NCBI RefSeq assembly: GCF_003334305.1
Contig: NZ_QOWS01000026.1
Strand: one strand, 5' to 3'
DNA from: Escherichia coli
GTDB lineage: Bacteria; Pseudomonadota; Gammaproteobacteria; Enterobacterales; Enterobacteriaceae
DNA length: 64,000 bases
In this document: one piece after another, positions 40,443 to 46,331 of the stretch
How positions within the stretch are numbered: position 1 is the stretch's first letter
Layout: each line of letters starts with the position of its first letter
Program-made: the position numbers and the translations under genes
Notes under the pieces: generated by a model
What the model saw: the letters and a program-made list of their open reading frames with translations, nothing else
Told to the model about the DNA's origin: nothing
The model's database searches: none

Positions 40443-41135
40443 ATGAAAAAGATTAATGCAATAATTTTATTATCTTCTCTGACCTCTGCCTCGGTATTTG
40501 CTGGCGCATACGTCGAAAACAGGGAGGCATATAATCTTGCCTCCGATCAGGGCGAGGTTATGCTACGTGTGGGTTATAACTTCGATATGGGCGCGGGTAT
40601 TATGTTAACCAATACCTACACCTTTCAGCGAGAAGATGAACTAAAACATGGCTATAATGAAATTGAAGGTTGGTATCCTTTATTCAAACCAACCGATAAA
40701 TTAACCATCCAGCCCGGTGGCTTAATTAATGATAAGAGTATCGGTTCGGGTGGTGCAGTGTATCTGGACGTCAACTATAAATTTGTACCATGGTTTAATC
40801 TGACAGTACGAAATCGCTATAACCATAATAACTATAGTTCAACAGATTTGAGCGGGGAACTGGATAATAATGACACCTATGAAATTGGCACCTACTGGAA
40901 TTTTAAAATCACCGATAAATTTTCCTATACATTTGAGCCACATTACTTCATGCGAGTGAATGACTTTAATAGTAGCAACGGGAAAGATCATCATTGGGAA
41001 ATCACTAACACCTTCCGTTACCGTATTAATGAACACTGGCTCCCTTATTTCGAATTGCGCTGGTTAGACCGCAACGTCGAACCGTACCACCGCGAGCAAA
41101 ACCAGATCCGTATCGGGACGAAGTATTTCTTCTGA
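40443..41135 (+). CDS. ompL: Outer membrane porin L
   Basis: 230 aa from ATG 40443 (MKKINAIILLSSLTSASVFAGAYVEN...), signal peptide, C-terminal ..YFF typical of beta-barrel OMPs. Confidence 0.9.
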   Translation: MKKINAIILLSSLTSASVFAGAYVENREAYNLASDQGEVMLRVGYNFDMGAGIMLTNTYTFQREDELKHGYNEIEGWYPLFKPTDKLTIQPGGLINDKSIGSGGAVYLDVNYKFVPWFNLTVRNRYNHNNYSSTDLSGELDNNDTYEIGTYWNFKITDKFSYTFEPHYFMRVNDFNSSNGKDHHWEITNTFRYRINEHWLPYFELRWLDRNVEPYHREQNQIRIGTKYFF

Positions 41136-41144
41136 TGTGAAACT

Positions 41145-41222
<78 letters not shown>

Positions 41223-41225
41223 TAA

Positions 41226-42491
41226 TTAAGCTTCAGCCGCCAGCATCTCTTTCTTACGTTGGCTAATACGCTTAACCAGCATTACGGAAACCACCGCACC
41301 ACAGAATGCGAAGCAGGCCATAATGCCAAACACGATTTTGTAGCCAATAATCCCCGGATTTAAATCCAGAATGTAGCCATACAGACTGAAGCAGAACATC
41401 GCCGGGGCGTAACCAATAAAGCTACCCAACGCCATCGCCGCGCCTGTTTTATTTTCAGCAATTTTTGCTTCGCCGATAGGTGCAAAAAATACGGCTCGCT
41501 GTGTAAAGACTATCGCGCCAAAGCCCAGCGTACATGCCATCCCTAAATAGACCGGCATACTTTCGTGCGGCAGCATAATCAACAGTACGAGCGCAGCGGT
41601 ACTGATGATAAAGGTGTAGCATAGATATTTACTCGGCGATTTCAGGATCTTATCTGAAATCATGCCACCAATCGGTCCACCAATCATTTTCAGACAGTAT
41701 TGGTTAATGATGCCGTAAGCCCCCACCAGCGCAACGGGCAATAGATAGATGTTTTTCAGGAATGGAATGAAGAATGTCAGGCCACAGTAAACCGCGTAAA
41801 CGAAGAAGACGTTAAAAGCGATAAGCCAGATGGTTTTGTCTCTCAGCACCGAGGTCATACTGGTGTTTTGCGATGCTCCGTCTTCTTTTTTCACCTCAAC
41901 GGACGGTGCCTCTTCTTTGTCATTCAGGACAAAGAAAATAATAATGCCTACGGCAATCACAATAAGGGAATAGAACCAGATGCCTGCTTTAAAACCCAAT
42001 AAGCCACTGCCAAACCAGGTAAATACTGCCAACGCAGAAAATGCCACCACGGTATCGACAATGCCACGCCCTGTTTCGAAGAAGCCAAACAACCGACCTT
42101 GTTGTTCGCTATTGCCCAATCGACTTACCGACTTGAGCAAGACCGGCCAGTTCATCATGTCGCAAGTAACGCCAAATAGCGCCCAGACAAAGAGGATGCC
42201 CCAATACCCCGGCATTGTCGTCAAATAAACACCCAGTAATCCTGTCGCAATGAGTGAGAATGACATGGTGTATCTGCGCGGTAGTTTATCGGCAAAATAA
42301 ATAGACAGAAAAAAACCCACTGTCGTGACAAATGAGTTTACCGACATAGCATTACCAATTTGACCATTGGTCAAATGGAAATATTCCTGCATCGGGATAT
42401 AAAACGCATCTTTCAGCGACGGTAATTTATAAATTGTACCGCCACACAATGTTAATAGACTAAATAACGCCCATTTCTTTTTCGTGAGCAT
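41226..42491 (-). CDS. yihN: MFS-family transporter
   Basis: 421 aa ORF, 12-TM profile, recognised as YihN. Confidence 0.9.
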   Translation of the reverse strand: MLTKKKWALFSLLTLCGGTIYKLPSLKDAFYIPMQEYFHLTNGQIGNAMSVNSFVTTVGFFLSIYFADKLPRRYTMSFSLIATGLLGVYLTTMPGYWGILFVWALFGVTCDMMNWPVLLKSVSRLGNSEQQGRLFGFFETGRGIVDTVVAFSALAVFTWFGSGLLGFKAGIWFYSLIVIAVGIIIFFVLNDKEEAPSVEVKKEDGASQNTSMTSVLRDKTIWLIAFNVFFVYAVYCGLTFFIPFLKNIYLLPVALVGAYGIINQYCLKMIGGPIGGMISDKILKSPSKYLCYTFIISTAALVLLIMLPHESMPVYLGMACTLGFGAIVFTQRAVFFAPIGEAKIAENKTGAAMALGSFIGYAPAMFCFSLYGYILDLNPGIIGYKIVFGIMACFAFCGAVVSVMLVKRISQRKKEMLAAEA

Positions 42492-42592
42492 AACATCCCC
42501 TAAGCGATTTTTAAAATCACTGTTTTAAAGGCAATAAGATACCGACCATTCATATGGAATGGTTTTATTAACTGCGTATGAGTTAAAACTTA

Positions 42593-43573
42593 TTAGTGGT
42601 TCAGAAGATGGTTTGCCTCTTGTTTGATTTGTTGTAGTACGTTACGCACATGATTTATCTGATTAATTGCATCTTCTTTTTCTTTACGTAACCGCGCATC
42701 CAGTAAATGATTTTCTGGCAATGGTGTTTCACTCATCTGGCGATAAGGGATCCACGGATTATCATCTTCGTCTTCAAAGCGGAACGCCGGCGCATAGTAA
42801 TCAACCTCTTCTTCCAGGCCATATGCCGTCACCTGCGGCTCATCATCACCCAGGCATATAAGGTGCGTTAATAACGCTTTGAACGGCATATCACCCTGAC
42901 CTGAAATACAGGCTTTATGACCCAGGCCACCCGGTTCTTTAACGATCAAGGCATCTTTGATATGGACCTGGGTAATATGCGGCGCCATCGTTTTTAAAGC
43001 GTCGATGGGATGCTCATTTGCATTGATCATGTTCGCAAAATCAAACAGTAAGGAAAGAGATTCCATCTCACTTTCTTTGACCAGCGACACCAGCTCATGG
43101 CTTTTTAAATCTTCATGCTGTTCGATCGTAAAAGTCAGGCCGCTGTCCTGATACGTTTCCCGTACATAGGCAATGTCGTTAGCGATGATCGATAATACGT
43201 CGCGCAAATTACCTTCATAACGTGGATAAAAACGTACGGACGATGCCCCAGTTTTCAACGCAATGGCGACGGCTTCGTCAATAGATGCCTTATCTGAGGC
43301 GCTGGTTTCAATATGAATATCAAGGTTCAGACGGCGGGCTTTATCTCCAAAGGCAGAGAGTTCTTTATCGTCCATATTACCAAGAGAAAAACGCTCGCCA
43401 TCCAGAACATGGATTTTGACGCCACGTAGATTATTTTCACTTGCGATATCAAGTAAATCAGCAGGCAACACTCTTTCCAGCCGCATATTTAAATGAAAGG
43501 CATAAGCATGTAAATAAAGAGGAAGAGTGTCGACACGTTGTAGAATCTTTCTTGCGTTATTTATTGTCACCAT
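42593..43573 (-). CDS. yihM: Sugar-phosphate isomerase/epimerase (TIM-barrel) family protein
   Basis: 326 aa ORF MVTINNARKILQRVDTLPLYLHAYAFHLNMR..., recognised as YihM. Confidence 0.9.
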   Translation of the reverse strand: MVTINNARKILQRVDTLPLYLHAYAFHLNMRLERVLPADLLDIASENNLRGVKIHVLDGERFSLGNMDDKELSAFGDKARRLNLDIHIETSASDKASIDEAVAIALKTGASSVRFYPRYEGNLRDVLSIIANDIAYVRETYQDSGLTFTIEQHEDLKSHELVSLVKESEMESLSLLFDFANMINANEHPIDALKTMAPHITQVHIKDALIVKEPGGLGHKACISGQGDMPFKALLTHLICLGDDEPQVTAYGLEEEVDYYAPAFRFEDEDDNPWIPYRQMSETPLPENHLLDARLRKEKEDAINQINHVRNVLQQIKQEANHLLNH

Positions 43574-43580
43574 AAAACAC

Positions 43581-44291
43581 CTACAGATTAATGATGAGGT
43601 CTACGGCCTCAAATCGCCAATATTCAATATCTATCTGGACAATATTGCCTTGCTGGTCGGCGCGATGCTTTTCAATTAAGATCGCTGGCATACCCGCAGA
43701 ACCGCCAAGATACTTGCTGATATCGCCCGGCATTCTGACGGGTTTGAAAATCAATTTTTTTACTACCGTCTCTTTTTGGTAGCACTTTTCCCAGACTGCA
43801 GAAAATGAGTGGTTTTCAAGTTGTTCAATAAAACCCGGAGCAACTTCAGGATTAATATATGTTTCGTGATAGAAAACTTTATGTCCTTCCAGCGCCCCCC
43901 AGCCGGTGATGCGATAGAGTTCAGTTGATGGTGTCACTGCAATCAGTGGCGCGAGCGTCTTGGGAATATCGCTGGTACGGTTTTTCTCGGTAAACCCCCA
44001 GGAAGGCTCTCGTCCTTGCTCAATTGCGGCCCGCTGAAAGCTCGCCGACAACTCCGGACTGTAATTAAATCGCGGCTGGGTCACGAACCACCCCTTACGA
44101 TCCTTACGGAAGATTTTGGATTCTGCCTCGAGGTTCAACAACGCCTGGCGCAGCGTCATACGTTTAATGCCCAGCAGTTCTCCCAGCTCTCTTTCTGAAG
44201 GGAGTTTTCCACCCGGCGTGGTGATGCCATCTTTCAACCACCGATCCAGTTTCTCTTTTGCATTTTCTACGGTGGATTGATTCTCCGCCAT
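43581..44291 (-). CDS. yihL: GntR-family transcriptional regulator
   Basis: 236 aa ORF with N-terminal wHTH (..ERELGELLGIKRMTLRQAL..) and UTRA-like C-terminal domain. Confidence 0.9.
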   Translation of the reverse strand: MAENQSTVENAKEKLDRWLKDGITTPGGKLPSERELGELLGIKRMTLRQALLNLEAESKIFRKDRKGWFVTQPRFNYSPELSASFQRAAIEQGREPSWGFTEKNRTSDIPKTLAPLIAVTPSTELYRITGWGALEGHKVFYHETYINPEVAPGFIEQLENHSFSAVWEKCYQKETVVKKLIFKPVRMPGDISKYLGGSAGMPAILIEKHRADQQGNIVQIDIEYWRFEAVDLIINL

Positions 44292-44455
44292 TGTTTAATC
44301 CTTTTGGTTTAAACCAGATGAAGCATCTTACGCTTACGCCAAAAAAGAAAGCAATTAACGGCGTATGACTTTGCAGATAATTGTGACAAAGCTCTCTATT
44401 GACGTAATCCCAGACTTATAAGGGAGATACTCGCATTGGTGTGCGCTCACGACAG

Positions 44456-44492
44456 GTAAAAAAAAACCTGCCAGCGATGGCAGGTTTTTTAT
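44456..44492 (-). terminator. typA (bipA) rho-independent terminator
   Basis: Stem cctgccagcgatggcagg flanked by A- and T-runs, 16 bp downstream of typA stop. Confidence 0.7.
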
Positions 44493-44507
44493 AACTAAAA
44501 AACGAAA

Positions 44508-46331
44508 TTAATCGTCTTTCGGTGCGCGGTTGGCGCGGCGACGATCGTTTTCCGTCAGGTGACGTTTACGAATACGGATAGAGGTCGGAGTCACTTCTAC
44601 TAGTTCGTCATCATCGATGAACTCCAGAGCTTGTTCCAGAGTCATGCGGATAGGCGGAACCAGAACAACGGCTTCGTCAGTACCGGAAGCACGCATGTTG
44701 GTCAGTTTCTTACCGGTCAGGCAGTTTACCGTCAGGTCGTTAGAGCGGCTATGAATACCGATAATCTGACCTTCGTAAACTTCTGCACCGTGACCGAGGA
44801 ACAGCTTACCGCGATCCTGCAGACCGAACAGCGCGAACGCGACCGCTTTACCCTGACCGTTAGAGATCAGTACGCCGTTCTGACGCTGACCCACTTCACC
44901 CGGACGTACGTCGTCGTAGTGGCTGAAGGTGGAGTACAGCAGACCAGTACCGGAAGTCATGGTCATGAACTCAGAACGGAAGCCAATCAGACCACGGCTT
45001 GGGATCACGTAGTCGAGACGTACGCGGCCTTTACCGTCTGGATTCATGTTTTTCAGGTCGCCTTTACGTTCGCCCAGCGCCTGCATTACAGAACCCTGAT
45101 GCTGTTCTTCAACGTCCAGAGTCACGTTTTCATATGGCTCTTGTTTACGACCGTCGATTTCACGGAAGATAACTTTCGGACGGGATACCGCCAGTTCGAA
45201 ACCTTCACGACGCATGTTTTCGATCAGAACAGACAGGTGTAGTTCGCCACGACCAGAAACGCGGAACGCATCAGCGTCTTCGGTTTCTTCTACGCGCAGC
45301 GCAACGTTGTGTACCAGTTCTTTGTTCAGACGATCCAGGATCTGACGAGACGTTACGAACTTACCTTCTTTACCGCAGAACGGCGAGGTGTTAACGCAGA
45401 AGAACATAGAAACGGTCGGCTCATCAACGGAGAGTGCCGGCAGCGCTTCAACGTTTTGCGTGTCGCAAACGGTGTCAGAAATGTTCAGTTCGCCAAGGCC
45501 CGTGATCGCAACGATATCGCCAGCTTCCGCCAGGTCGGTTTCGATACGTTCCAGACCGAGGTGGCCCAGCACTTTACCGACTTTCGCGTTGCGGGTTTTG
45601 CCTTCGCTATCGATGATAGTGACCTGCTGGTTCGGCTTCACTTTACCGCGCTTGATGCGGCCAATGCCGATAACGCCAACATAGCTGTTGTAATCGAGCT
45701 GAGAAATCTGCATCTGGAACGGACCGTCAAGGTCAACGTCCGGCGCAGGAACGTGGTCAACAATCGCCTGGTACAGCGGGGTCATGTCTTCCGCCATATC
45801 TTCGTGGTCCAGACCCGCGATACCGTTCAGCGCAGAAGCGTAAACGATCGGGAAGTCCAACTGCTCGTCGGTCGCGTCGAGGTTAACGAACAGATCGAAT
45901 ACCTGATCCACAACCCAATCAGGACGCGCGCCAGGGCGGTCAACTTTGTTGATAACAACAATCGGCTTCAGGCCGTAAGCAAACGCTTTTTTGGTTACGA
46001 AGCGCGTTTGCGGCATCGGGCCGTCAAATGCGTCAACCACCAGCAGCACTGAGTCTACCATGGACATTACACGTTCAACTTCACCACCGAAGTCGGCGTG
46101 CCCCGGGGTATCAACGATGTTGATACGGTAATCATTCCATTTGATAGCGGTGTTTTTCGCGAGGATGGTAATCCCACGCTCTTTCTCCAAATCGTTGGAG
46201 TCCATCACGCGCTCTTGGGTTTCGGCACGAGAGTCGAACGTACCGGATTGTTGGAGCAGCTTGTCTACCAGGGTGGTTTTACCATGGTCTACGTGCGCGA
46301 TGATGGCGATATTACGCAATTTTTCGATCAC
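44508..46331 (-). CDS. typA: Ribosome-associated translational GTPase BipA/TypA
   Basis: 607 aa ORF (M)[25 protein letters not shown]...; first codon is GTG at 46331. Confidence 0.96.

What the first reader, a model, noticed from the sequence alone, without database searches (positions are those of the whole stretch)
41226..44291. yihL-yihM-yihN: regulator, isomerase-like enzyme and MFS transporter with no substrate evident from sequence
A GntR-family regulator, a TIM-barrel sugar-phosphate isomerase/epimerase-like protein and an MFS transporter sit co-oriented next to the sulfoquinovose cluster, separated from ompL by REP elements. As far as I know the substrate is not established.
Basis: partly seen in the sequence, partly recalled or inferred. 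Interest (0 to 1): 0.4.

Follow-up and report, generated by a model that had tools for sequence, protein, structure and literature searches.

The report
Orphan yihLMN uptake-and-conversion gene cassette
This is a real, self-contained three-gene module of E. coli (repressor, metal enzyme, membrane transporter) whose nutrient is still unknown; comparison with other bacteria shows where its repressor binds and points to a phosphate-bearing, probably amine-bearing, small molecule rather than the neighbouring sulfosugar pathway.

Summary
yihN (41226-42491), yihM (42593-43573) and yihL (43581-44291) are intact, co-oriented minus-strand genes of the E. coli chromosome, and two REP units separate them from ompL. 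I found no paper that assigns a substrate.

New results:
1. YihL's operator is the palindrome TGGTTTAAACCA (44305-44316). It lies in front of yihL in 58 of 62 loci from many genera and coincides with the one strong published ChIP-exo peak for YihL.
2. The cassette does not depend on the sulfoquinovose cluster. It is missing from 1003 of 5426 complete E. coli genomes, 216 of which keep ompL. In Aeromonas, Serratia, Photobacterium and Acinetobacter it sits in unrelated neighbourhoods.
3. Where the YihN transporter is absent, yihM is joined to ABC importers with AccA-like or PhnS-like binding proteins, and often to a HisN-type phosphatase or an agmatinase-like enzyme. Na/Pi-PhoU transporters and MocR regulators also occur there. 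RidA sits in some YihN-containing operons.
4. YihM is a confidently modelled xylose-isomerase-like TIM barrel. Its nearest solved relatives are the isomerase Art22 and the dehydratase AsbF.

Best reading: an inducible catabolic cassette for an organophosphate that probably carries an amine. The substrate itself remains unproven. Interest is moderate.

The parts
43581..44291 (-). yihL: GntR/HutC-type (winged-helix + UTRA) local repressor. Its closest curated family is PhnR, but it scores below that family's cut-off.
   Evidence: ORF; RefSeq annotation. NCBIfam PhnR 184 bits (cut-off 297), next best family about 50 bits. PDB relatives NagR/YvoA and DasR. Orthologues carry PF00392 + PF07702.
42593..43573 (-). 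yihM: metal-dependent xylose-isomerase-like TIM barrel with a conserved C-terminal extension of about 85 residues. Predicted enolising lyase or isomerase.
41226..42491 (-). yihN: 12-TM MFS transporter, distantly related to the organophosphate:phosphate antiporters but lacking their TM7 arginine.
   Evidence: ORF. NCBIfam PgtP family 70 bits (cut-off 408). hhalign against GlpT/UhpT/UhpC gives probability 99.2%, with GlpT R269 aligned to the conserved Tyr235. 74% identical to the Aeromonas orthologue. The knockout lowers dye uptake (PMC8131027).
44305..44316 (.). YihL operator: the perfect palindrome TGGTTTAAACCA (extended form ATCTGGTTTAAACCAA), 13 bp upstream of the yihL ATG and overlapping the 5' untranslated region.
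   Evidence: Only one exact copy in the 64-kb window. TGGTnTAnACCA occurs in 58 of 62 loci that encode a YihL homologue, 11-34 bp before yihL in nearly all single-site loci. It coincides with the single strong YihL ChIP-exo peak, signal/noise 60 (PMC8464067 supplement).
44325..44354 (-). Candidate sigma-70 promoter of yihLMN: -35 TTGCTT (44354-44349), 18-nt spacer, -10 TAAGAT (44330-44325). This would place the operator at about +1 to +13.
   Evidence: My own scan. It is a weak consensus match and an inference only; the stricter built-in scan did not list it.
44382..44397 (-). CRP-like site AGAGAGCTTTGTCACA (2 mismatches to TGTGA-N6-TCACA), about 71 bp upstream of the inferred transcription start.
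   Evidence: Consistent with the published listing of yihLM as Crp-activated (PMC8085971). Not tested further.
41145..41221 (.). Two inverted REP units (BIME-like) between the convergent 3' ends of ompL and yihN; they mark the distal boundary of the cassette.
   Evidence: The query that contains them hits a median of 21 places per E. coli genome.

Best explanation
yihLMN is a self-contained, horizontally mobile, substrate-inducible uptake-and-conversion cassette.

Shown:
- YihL binds one palindromic operator (TGGTTTAAACCA) just upstream of its own start codon.
- That is its only strong site in the genome, so the regulon is essentially yihL-yihM-yihN.

Inferred:
- Without inducer, YihL represses the operon. 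Crp probably activates it.
- YihN imports an anionic small molecule, most likely a phosphate ester or diester that also carries an amino or guanidino group.
- YihM is a mononuclear-metal (E151/D178/H204/E250) xylose-isomerase-like TIM barrel. It abstracts a proton next to a carbonyl or carboxylate, then either eliminates a beta leaving group or isomerises the compound. The product (an enamine or imine in the lyase version) enters central metabolism.
- In bacteria that use an ABC importer instead of YihN, the same enzyme is joined to a HisN-type phosphatase or a ureohydrolase, and sometimes to a phosphate exporter.

The cassette is not part of sulfoquinovose catabolism.
For: Regulation:
- The operator is conserved in 58 of 62 YihL-encoding loci across Enterobacterales, Aeromonas, Photobacterium, Neisseriaceae, Acinetobacter and Marinobacterium.
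- It equals the ChIP-exo peak with signal/noise 60; the two other peaks are at about 5.
- yihLM is listed as Crp-activated.

Module:
- By ORF clustering, YihM co-occurs with YihN in 66 of 84 loci and with YihL in 58, in unrelated neighbourhoods. A tblastn recount gave 64 and 61 of 90.

Phosphate:
- A HisN/IMPase-type phosphatase lies immediately downstream of yihM in at least 11 loci.
- In Marinobacterium and Oceanospirillaceae a copy sits at the end of the divergent AccA-like ABC operon. Four YihL operators lie between that operon and yihL-yihM.
- That binding protein keeps all four phosphate-contacting residues of AccA (N54, Y375, Y376, S419) while the sugar contacts differ.
- Na/Pi-PhoU transporters occur beside or near yihM in 3 loci.
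- ABC components are PhnS/PhnT2-like.
- YihN is homologous to GlpT/UhpT, and YihL is closest to PhnR.
- Four invariant or nearly invariant arginines in YihM fit an anionic substrate.

Amine:
- A RidA gene of the archetypal type (PARSCVEV..RLPKD) lies inside the operon in Proteus, Providencia and Photobacterium.
- MocR-type regulators occur in 12 loci.
- An agmatinase-like ureohydrolase takes the place of the phosphatase in 3 loci.
- A SugE/Gdx-type exporter lies between yihL and yihM in Crenobacter.

Chemistry:
- The nearest solved homologues are the Art22 isomerase and the AsbF dehydratase, with shared E-x-H motifs.
Against: - No substrate, inducer or activity has been measured, so everything about the ligand rests on gene neighbourhood.
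- The E. coli cassette itself has no phosphatase, RidA or phosphate exporter.
- YihN lacks the TM7 arginine that defines organophosphate:phosphate antiporters, and its score for that family is far below the cut-off.
- YihL is below the PhnR cut-off.
- Several associations (Na/Pi-PhoU, ureohydrolase, GMC oxidoreductase, aldehyde dehydrogenase) come from only 2-3 lineages and could be coincidental.
- Homologues at 45-50% identity may act on different substrates from the E. coli enzyme.
- My gene calling in GC-rich loci was crude.
Confidence: 0.55

Rival explanations
1. YihM is an ordinary sugar-phosphate isomerase or epimerase. YihN imports an unusual sugar phosphate without an amine (for example a pyranose-2-phosphate-like or rare ketose phosphate), and YihM converts it in one step into a glycolytic or pentose-phosphate intermediate.
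For: - RefSeq names YihM a sugar phosphate isomerase/epimerase.
- The spacing of E151/D178/H204/E250 resembles that of ketose 3-epimerases (my recollection of those enzymes).
- The AccA-like binding protein points to sugar-2-phosphate-type ligands.
- A regulator-enzyme-transporter trio is enough if the product is already a central sugar phosphate.
Against: - NCBIfam scores for epimerase families are negligible (15-17 bits against cut-offs of 200-290).
- The profile hits Art22 and AsbF far better than any epimerase.
- It does not explain RidA, the MocR regulators, the ureohydrolase or the PhnR and PhnS likeness.
- The sugar-hydroxyl contacts of AccA are not conserved.
Confidence: 0.2
2. YihM is a phosphodiesterase that plays the role of AccF or GlpQ (the fold is shared with endonuclease IV). 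It would split an imported phosphodiester into an alcohol and a phosphomonoester, which the neighbouring phosphatase then hydrolyses.
For: - AccA-like ABC operons linked to yihM contain an AccG-like phosphatase but no AccF-type phosphodiesterase.
- Some metagenomic homologues appear to carry N-terminal signal peptides, judged by eye.
Against: - The conserved residues fit the single E-D-H-E site plus an E-x-H base of isomerases and dehydratases.
- They do not fit the nine-ligand trinuclear zinc site of endonuclease IV (that site is from my memory; I did not align it directly).
- The closest homologues are an isomerase and a dehydratase.
- It does not explain RidA.
Confidence: 0.1
3. The cassette is an accessory of sulfoquinovose or sulfonate metabolism, for example uptake and conversion of a related sulfosugar or sulfonate. 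That would explain its position next to yihO-yihV.
For: It is adjacent to ompL-yihOPQRSTUV in Escherichia and some Citrobacter. Sulfonates resemble phosphonates and phosphates, and YihL is PhnR-like.
Against: - 216 E. coli genomes keep ompL and the cluster without yihLMN.
- The cassette occurs without any sulfoquinovose genes in Aeromonas, Serratia, Photobacterium, Acinetobacter and others.
- It has its own regulator with a single private operator.
- It is convergent with ompL and separated from it by REP units.
- Its partners in other species are phosphatases and phosphate transporters, not sulfite or sulfonate genes.
Confidence: 0.05
4. The cassette has no dedicated natural nutrient in E. 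coli. It is cryptic or decaying, and YihN acts mainly as a promiscuous influx route for lipophilic cations.
For: - The yihN knockout lowers uptake of many unrelated dyes.
- The cassette is missing from 18% of genomes.
- No growth phenotype turned up in the literature I could search.
Against: - The genes are intact at 98-100% identity in 4238 genomes.
- Orthologues are 53-74% identical in Aeromonas, with gene order and operator preserved.
- In vivo, YihL occupies the operator.
Confidence: 0.05

Closest known systems
PhnR-controlled 2-aminoethylphosphonate utilisation (phnR-phnSTUV/phnWX of Salmonella and relatives)
   Same: YihL's best curated family match is PhnR (184 bits against about 50 for any other family). 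The ABC versions of the yihM locus use PhnS-, PhnT2- and PhnU/V-like components.
   Different: YihL is below the PhnR cut-off. There is no PhnW transaminase or PhnX phosphonatase. The enzyme is a xylose-isomerase-like TIM barrel and the importer in E. coli is an MFS protein.
Agrocinopine catabolism operon (accR-accABCDE-accF-accG) of Agrobacterium
   Same: In Marinobacterium and Oceanospirillaceae, yihL-yihM faces an AccA-like binding protein (267 bits), an Opp-type ABC transporter and an IMPase-family phosphatase that I take to be AccG-like. The four phosphate-clamp residues of AccA are conserved.
   Different: There is no AccF phosphodiesterase. The regulator is HutC-type rather than DeoR-type. 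The sugar-contacting residues differ. The E. coli cassette has none of the ABC or phosphatase genes.
AsbF/QuiC-type 3-dehydroshikimate dehydratases and the Art22 isomerase (xylose-isomerase-like TIM barrels)
   Different: Identity is only about 20%. YihM has a conserved arginine-rich C-terminal extension of about 85 residues that both lack. The genomic context has nothing to do with shikimate or polyketide sugar pathways.
UhpT/GlpT/PgtP organophosphate:phosphate antiporter systems
   Same: YihN is homologous over 338 columns (hhalign probability 99.2%). Both are single-transporter nutrient modules for anionic substrates.
   Different: The TM7 arginine (GlpT R269) is a conserved tyrosine in YihN, and the family score is far below the cut-off (70 against 408 bits).
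frl (fructoselysine) operon of E. coli: FrlR (HutC-type GntR) with FrlC (AP_endonuc_2 epimerase)
   Same: From memory: the same pairing of a HutC-type repressor with a xylose-isomerase-like TIM barrel enzyme, acting on an amine-bearing substrate.
   Different: yihLMN has no kinase or deglycase. I made no direct sequence comparison here, so this is a lead from memory only.

Membership tests
GntR family, HutC subfamily (YihL) | N-terminal winged-helix GntR domain plus C-terminal UTRA effector domain | tested here: met
   Full-length NCBIfam hits to PhnR, HutC and PhnF. PF00392 + PF07702 on the orthologues. PDB relatives NagR/YvoA and DasR.
GntR family, HutC subfamily (YihL) | Palindromic operator of the GT-n-TA-n-AC type (the family consensus is from memory) | tested here: met
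   TGGTTTAAACCA at 44305-44316, conserved in 58 of 62 loci and bound in vivo.
PhnR (2-aminoethylphosphonate utilisation regulator, TIGR03337) | Score above the curated equivalog cut-off | tested here: not met
   184.2 bits against a cut-off of 296.75.
PhnR (2-aminoethylphosphonate utilisation regulator, TIGR03337) | Linkage to phnWX and phnSTUV genes | tested here: not met
   The E. coli neighbours are yihM, yihN, typA and ompL. PhnS/T/U-like ABC genes appear only at yihM loci of other phyla.
Xylose isomerase-like TIM barrel (Pfam AP_endonuc_2) | Profile match and (beta/alpha)8 fold | tested here: met
Xylose isomerase-like TIM barrel (Pfam AP_endonuc_2) | Glu-Asp-His-Glu metal-binding tetrad | tested here: met
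   E151, D178 and H204 are invariant. The Glu of the LEEE motif (about residue 250) is present in 29 of 33 sequences, by my count from the alignment.
Ketose or sugar-phosphate 3-epimerases (DTE, UlaE/SgbU) | Curated family score | tested here: not met
   L-ribulose-5-phosphate 3-epimerase 15 bits against a cut-off of 200. PDB D-tagatose 3-epimerase E = 0.43.
3-dehydroshikimate dehydratase (AsbF type) | E-x-H catalytic motif and overall sequence membership | tested here: inconclusive
   The E-x-H, D-F and H-x-K motifs align, but the hit is only 58 bits and the context is unrelated.
Endonuclease IV | Nine-ligand trinuclear zinc site | not tested
Major facilitator superfamily (YihN) | MFS profile match, with motif A between TM2 and TM3 | tested here: met
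   PF07690 on the orthologues. Full-length NCBIfam MFS hits. D68-K69..R72-R73 read as motif A by eye; D68 is conserved in at least 97% of orthologues.
Organophosphate:phosphate antiporter family (GlpT, UhpT, PgtP) | Curated score, and the paired substrate-binding arginines of TM1 and TM7 | tested here: not met
   70.5 bits against a cut-off of 407.75. GlpT R269 aligns with the conserved Tyr235. TM1 fell outside the alignment; only Lys22 is conserved there.
acc-type agrocinopine system (only in the related loci L070, L073, L084) | AccA phosphate clamp (Asn54, Tyr375, Tyr376, Ser419) | tested here: met
   All four are conserved in the L073 binding protein.
acc-type agrocinopine system (only in the related loci L070, L073, L084) | AccF phosphodiesterase and the pyranose OH-1 anchor (Asn284, Glu510) | tested here: not met
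   No AccF-like gene was seen among the genes annotated in these loci. N284 is Ser and E510 is Pro.

The most novel reading that the evidence does not exclude
YihM could be the founding member of a cofactor-independent, metal-dependent beta-lyase family acting on O-phosphoserine-type esters, such as glycerophosphoserine, serine-ethanolamine phosphate, its guanidino form lombricine, or phosphoserine itself.

Proposed mechanism:
- It would remove the alpha-proton and expel the phosphate ester.
- That gives 2-aminoacrylate, which RidA converts to pyruvate and ammonia, plus a phosphomonoester.
- In E. coli the phosphomonoester would be glycerol-3-phosphate. Elsewhere it would be an amino-alcohol phosphate, handled by the HisN-type phosphatase.

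This one scheme would explain the RidA, the HisN-like phosphatase, the ureohydrolase, the phosphate exporter, the PhnR/PhnS likeness, the MocR regulators and the AccA-like binding proteins that recognise phosphodiesters. It would also explain why three genes are enough in E. coli.
Probability: 0.12. Interest if true: 0.7.

Novelty: new member of a known kind. Interest (0 to 1): 0.42.

Why it matters
yihL, yihM and yihN are among the E. coli genes whose function is still unknown. The YihM family is small (47 clusters at E below 1e-30 among 1.84 billion representative proteins), yet it is spread across Proteobacteria in a recognisable module.

Fixing the operator and showing that the regulon is private turns "unknown operon" into a ready biosensor: a yihL-promoter reporter can be screened against candidate compounds. 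The comparative context narrows that screen from "any sugar" to amino- or guanidino-organophosphates.

If the lyase reading is right, this would be a new route by which gut and marine bacteria use phospholipid head groups or phospho-amino compounds, and a new reaction for this fold. It also removes a tempting but wrong link to sulfoquinovose metabolism.

Tried and rejected
- Literature searches for yihL, yihM, yihN, b3872-b3874, Art22 and 5T1P found no functional assignment. Art22 and 5T1P found nothing usable.
- The many yihL mentions in PMC4759930 turned out to be use of the deletion as a linked marker only.
- Context look-ups for several distant metagenomic homologues gave contigs too short to help.
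- One high-GC metagenome contig placed a homologue near inositol-type genes and a shikimate-dehydrogenase-like gene. I did not build on it because it is a single case.
- A vitamin B6 (pyridoxal or pyridoxamine phosphate) idea came from a MocR regulator scoring above the PdxR cut-off, NCS1 transporters and GMC oxidoreductases. I set it aside because no known B6 step fits this fold and the evidence is generic.
- I also considered histidinol phosphate (HisN-like phosphatase, one HutF neighbour). It was dropped because the compound has no activating carbonyl and the hut linkage is a single case.
- My first two ORF-calling schemes failed on GC-rich loci by picking antisense ORFs. I replaced them with cluster-guided selection and a tblastn census.
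- The built-in promoter and terminator scan found nothing above chance in the region.
- The RNA fold of the yihM-yihN spacer is not significant (z = -1.8).
- From memory, a transporter classification places YihN with the Mycoplasma glycerophosphodiester transporter GlpU. I could not test this because I had no GlpU sequence.
Full report
**1. What is there**

The window is E. coli chromosome. Positions 40800-44800 are 100% identical to several complete genomes whose annotation reads ompL, yihN, yihM, yihL, typA. The sulfoquinovose genes yihO to yihV and csqR lie upstream of ompL, and glnA lies beyond typA.

- yihL 43581-44291
- yihM 42593-43573, only 7 bp after yihL
- yihN 41226-42491, 101 bp after yihM

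The 90-bp spacer between the convergent ends of ompL and yihN holds two inverted REP units (41145-41179 and 41194-41221). The REP core occurs seven times in the window against 0.02 expected by chance.

**2. Protein families**

YihL is a GntR regulator of the HutC type.
- Its best curated match by a wide margin is PhnR, the regulator of 2-aminoethylphosphonate utilisation (184 bits). The next families reach about 50 bits.
- It stays below PhnR's cut-off of 297 bits.
- Its solved relatives are NagR/YvoA and DasR.

YihM matches only the generic Pfam family AP_endonuc_2.
- An alignment of 33 homologues gave an AlphaFold model with mean pLDDT 95.9.
- A profile of the family finds Art22 (2e-19) and the 3-dehydroshikimate dehydratase AsbF (6e-15) far ahead of any epimerase.
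- The alignments show shared E-x-H (E151-Q-H153), D-F/Y (D178) and H-x-K (H204, K206) motifs.
- Invariant residues also include R114, R265 and S281. R13 and R278 are nearly invariant. R265, R278 and S281 lie in a C-terminal extension of about 85 residues that Art22 and AsbF lack. Such a cluster of arginines suggests an anionic substrate.

YihN is an MFS protein.
- A profile of 65 orthologues aligns with GlpT, UhpT and UhpC at 99.2% probability over 338 columns.
- The arginine of TM7 that is essential in those antiporters (GlpT R269; its importance is from my own knowledge) is a conserved tyrosine in YihN.
- The curated family score is far below threshold.
- YihN is therefore a relative of the organophosphate antiporters, not a member.

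**3. Regulation**

Thirteen bases upstream of the yihL ATG lies the perfect palindrome TGGTTTAAACCA (44305-44316). It is the only exact copy in the 64-kb window.

The same sequence precedes yihL in Aeromonas and Serratia, although the rest of the intergenic DNA is unrelated.

Across all loci fetched, TGGTnTAnACCA occurs in 58 of 62 loci that encode a YihL homologue. In nearly all single-site loci it lies 11-34 bp before the aligned start of yihL. By my rough estimate, chance would give about 0.02 sites per locus of 17 kb.

Published ChIP-exo data list three YihL sites in MG1655. One has signal/noise 60.5 at 4058436-4058459, nearest gene yihL. The other two are at about 5 (PMC8464067, supplementary file 5). 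Those coordinates refer to NC_000913.2.
- In NC_000913.3 yihL starts at 4060447 and the palindrome is at 4060422-4060433.
- With the 1977-bp offset between the two versions the peak becomes 4060413-4060436, which encloses the palindrome.
- The offset comes from the total length difference, and the version 2 length is from memory. The table's "nearest gene yihL" agrees with it.

So YihL is a local autoregulator with an essentially private regulon.

Two weaker features are inference only:
- A weak promoter (TTGCTT, 18 nt, TAAGAT) would put the operator at about +1 to +13.
- A CRP-like site lies about 71 bp upstream of that start. This fits the published listing of yihLM as Crp-activated (PMC8085971).

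**4. Independence from the sulfoquinovose cluster**

Of 5426 complete E. coli genomes:
- 4238 carry at least 80% of yihLMN, 185 carry fragments and 1003 carry nothing.
- 216 have ompL directly next to typA, with the sulfoquinovose genes intact.
- One strain keeps a 66-bp stump of yihN.
- 624 have a different island next to typA (DeoR regulator, sugar kinase, yihU-like reductase, aldolase, alcohol dehydrogenase, MFS).

Conversely, the regulator-enzyme-transporter trio sits in unrelated neighbourhoods in Aeromonas, Serratia, Buttiauxella, Morganella, Photobacterium, Acinetobacter and Neisseriaceae. Some Citrobacter carry two paralogous copies (L015 and L055 from one genome).

The position next to the sulfosugar genes is therefore a matter of location, not of function.

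**5. What the neighbours in other bacteria say**

The YihM family is small: 47 clusters at E below 1e-30 among 1.84 billion representatives. One scan of species genomes returned 80 loci. By ORF clustering, YihM is accompanied by YihN in 66 of 84 loci and by YihL in 58. A tblastn recount within 7 kb gave 64 and 61 of 90 loci.

The exceptions are the informative cases.

- **Proteus and Providencia.** The operon reads RidA-YihN-YihM with a different regulator. In three Photobacterium species it reads YihL-YihM-RidA-YihN. These RidA proteins score above the Rid-family cut-off and keep the PARSCVEV..RLPKD segment. From memory, that segment holds the arginine that binds the carboxylate of 2-imino acids.
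- **Rhizobiaceae** (Ensifer, Rhizobium, Shinella, Aminobacter). YihN is replaced by an ABC importer with a PhnS-like binding protein, PhnU/V-like permeases and a PhnT2-like ATPase. yihM is followed directly by a HisN-type IMPase-family phosphatase. That phosphatase scores 255-279 bits against a cut-off of 275, and its best structures are IMPase-family entries and a histidinol-phosphatase. A MocR-type regulator lies divergently. In one Ensifer locus a Na/Pi-PhoU transporter follows the phosphatase.
- **Pseudogulbenkiania.** The order is YihL-like regulator (divergent), a similar ABC importer, Na/Pi-PhoU, YihM, then an integrase.
- **Marinobacterium and an Oceanospirillaceae genome.** Four tandem YihL operators lie between yihL-yihM-(NCS1 transporter) and a divergent operon. 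That operon encodes an AccA-like binding protein, Opp-type permeases and ATPases, and the same HisN-type phosphatase. A Rhodobacterales genome shows the same layout with two operators.
- **The AccA-like binding protein.** It scores 267 bits with Agrobacterium AccA and 130 bits with the next family. The AccA structure paper names Asn54, Ser419, Tyr375 and Tyr376 as the residues that hold the phosphate (PMC4526662). All four are conserved in the Marinobacterium protein. The residues that hold the sugar hydroxyls are not: N284 is Ser, W423 is Glu, T430 is Gln, E434 is Leu and E510 is Pro.
- **Ureohydrolase loci.** In three other loci the slot just after yihM holds an agmatinase-like ureohydrolase instead of the phosphatase.
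- **Crenobacter.** A SugE/Gdx-type small exporter sits between yihL and yihM.

**6. Interpretation**

The recurring partners point in two directions.
- Phosphate: the phosphatase, the phosphate transporter, the phosphate-clamp binding protein, the PhnS/PhnT-like ABC components, the PhnR-like regulator and the GlpT-related MFS.
- Nitrogen: RidA, the MocR regulators, the ureohydrolase and the HisN-type (amino-alcohol phosphate) phosphatase.

YihM's closest characterised relatives carry out enolisation followed by isomerisation or beta-elimination.

I therefore read yihLMN as an inducible catabolic cassette for an organophosphate that probably carries an amino or guanidino group. YihN would be the importer and YihM a metal-dependent lyase or isomerase (confidence about 0.55).

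What is shown:
- the gene content;
- the operator and its occupancy in vivo;
- the independence from the sulfoquinovose cluster;
- the fold.

What is inferred:
- repression by YihL;
- the nature of the ligand;
- the reaction.

The most specific scheme that fits all partners is a beta-lyase acting on O-phosphoserine-type esters. It would produce 2-aminoacrylate plus a phosphomonoester. With glycerophosphoserine the products would be pyruvate, ammonia and glycerol-3-phosphate, which would explain why E. coli needs no further enzymes. I give this about 0.12.

Rivals:
- a plain sugar-phosphate isomerase or epimerase (0.2);
- a phosphodiesterase standing in for AccF (0.1);
- a sulfonate-related role (0.05);
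- a cryptic cassette with a promiscuous transporter (0.05).

**7. Caveats**

- All statements about the substrate rest on guilt by association in homologues that are 45-65% identical to the E. coli enzyme.
- Several associations come from only two or three lineages.
- Gene calling in GC-rich loci was improvised.
- The E. coli cassette itself lacks the informative partner genes.
- No experiment links any compound to the system. The only phenotype reported for yihN is reduced uptake of many fluorescent dyes in the knockout (PMC8131027).

**8. Verdict**

This is a real and correctly described orphan operon.

The work adds a defined operator and regulon, population-level evidence that the cassette is an independent accessory module, and a narrowed, testable class of substrates.

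It is a new member of a known kind of system: a repressor, transporter and enzyme cassette. Interest is moderate, and would rise if the lyase chemistry is confirmed.

Noticed in passing
window about 41136-44507, compared with L008, L100 and L101: The DNA flanking typA is a variable spot in E. coli. 624 complete genomes carry a different island there (DeoR regulator, sugar kinase, yihU-like reductase, aldolase, zinc alcohol dehydrogenase, MFS) instead of ompL-yihLMN. 216 have ompL directly next to typA. One strain keeps a 66-bp yihN stump.
   Followed up: partly
window 42545-42563 (yihM-yihN spacer): A 7-bp inverted repeat, ACCATTC-catat-GAATGGT, lies in the 101-bp gap between yihM and yihN. 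No T-run follows it, and the fold of the spacer is not significant (z = -1.8). Its half-sites read ACCA..TGGT, the reverse arrangement of the YihL operator. A published list gives the transcription unit as yihLM only.
   Followed up: partly
window 44458-44484: A strong intrinsic-terminator-like hairpin (CCTGCCA-tcgc-TGGCAGG followed by nine T) sits right after typA. It insulates yihL from typA read-through. The built-in terminator scan did not list it.
   Followed up: no
L015 and L055 (Citrobacter sp. R56); also L049-L051, L059, L063, L065, L068, L071: Some Citrobacter and relatives carry a second, paralogous YihL-YihM-YihN cassette (YihM about 61% identical to E. coli's). Its operator core is the same, or the variant TGGTTTATACCA. 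This suggests two related substrates and possible cross-talk between the repressors.
   Followed up: partly
proteins P0134, P0139, P0140 (metagenomic YihM homologues; L094-L096): Several distant YihM homologues have N-terminal extensions that look like signal peptides, so they may be exported enzymes. That would be odd for a sugar-phosphate isomerase. The contigs were too short to show any context.
   Followed up: partly
L002 6930-7015 (Aeromonas, upstream of yihL): A long run of CTGCTT / CTTTCTG short tandem repeats lies in the intergenic region upstream of the Aeromonas yihL promoter.
   Followed up: no
L046 9506-10693 (Pseudogulbenkiania): An integrase gene lies about 0.5 kb downstream of yihM. 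This fits the whole ABC, Na/Pi-PhoU and YihM unit lying on a mobile island.
   Followed up: no
L046 1645-2694 and PDB entry 5t1p: The PhnS-like binding protein linked to yihM scores 466 bits against an unpublished solved structure, 5t1p, deposited only as "ABC transporter, periplasmic substrate-binding protein". Any ligand seen or modelled in that entry could hint at the substrate.
   Followed up: no
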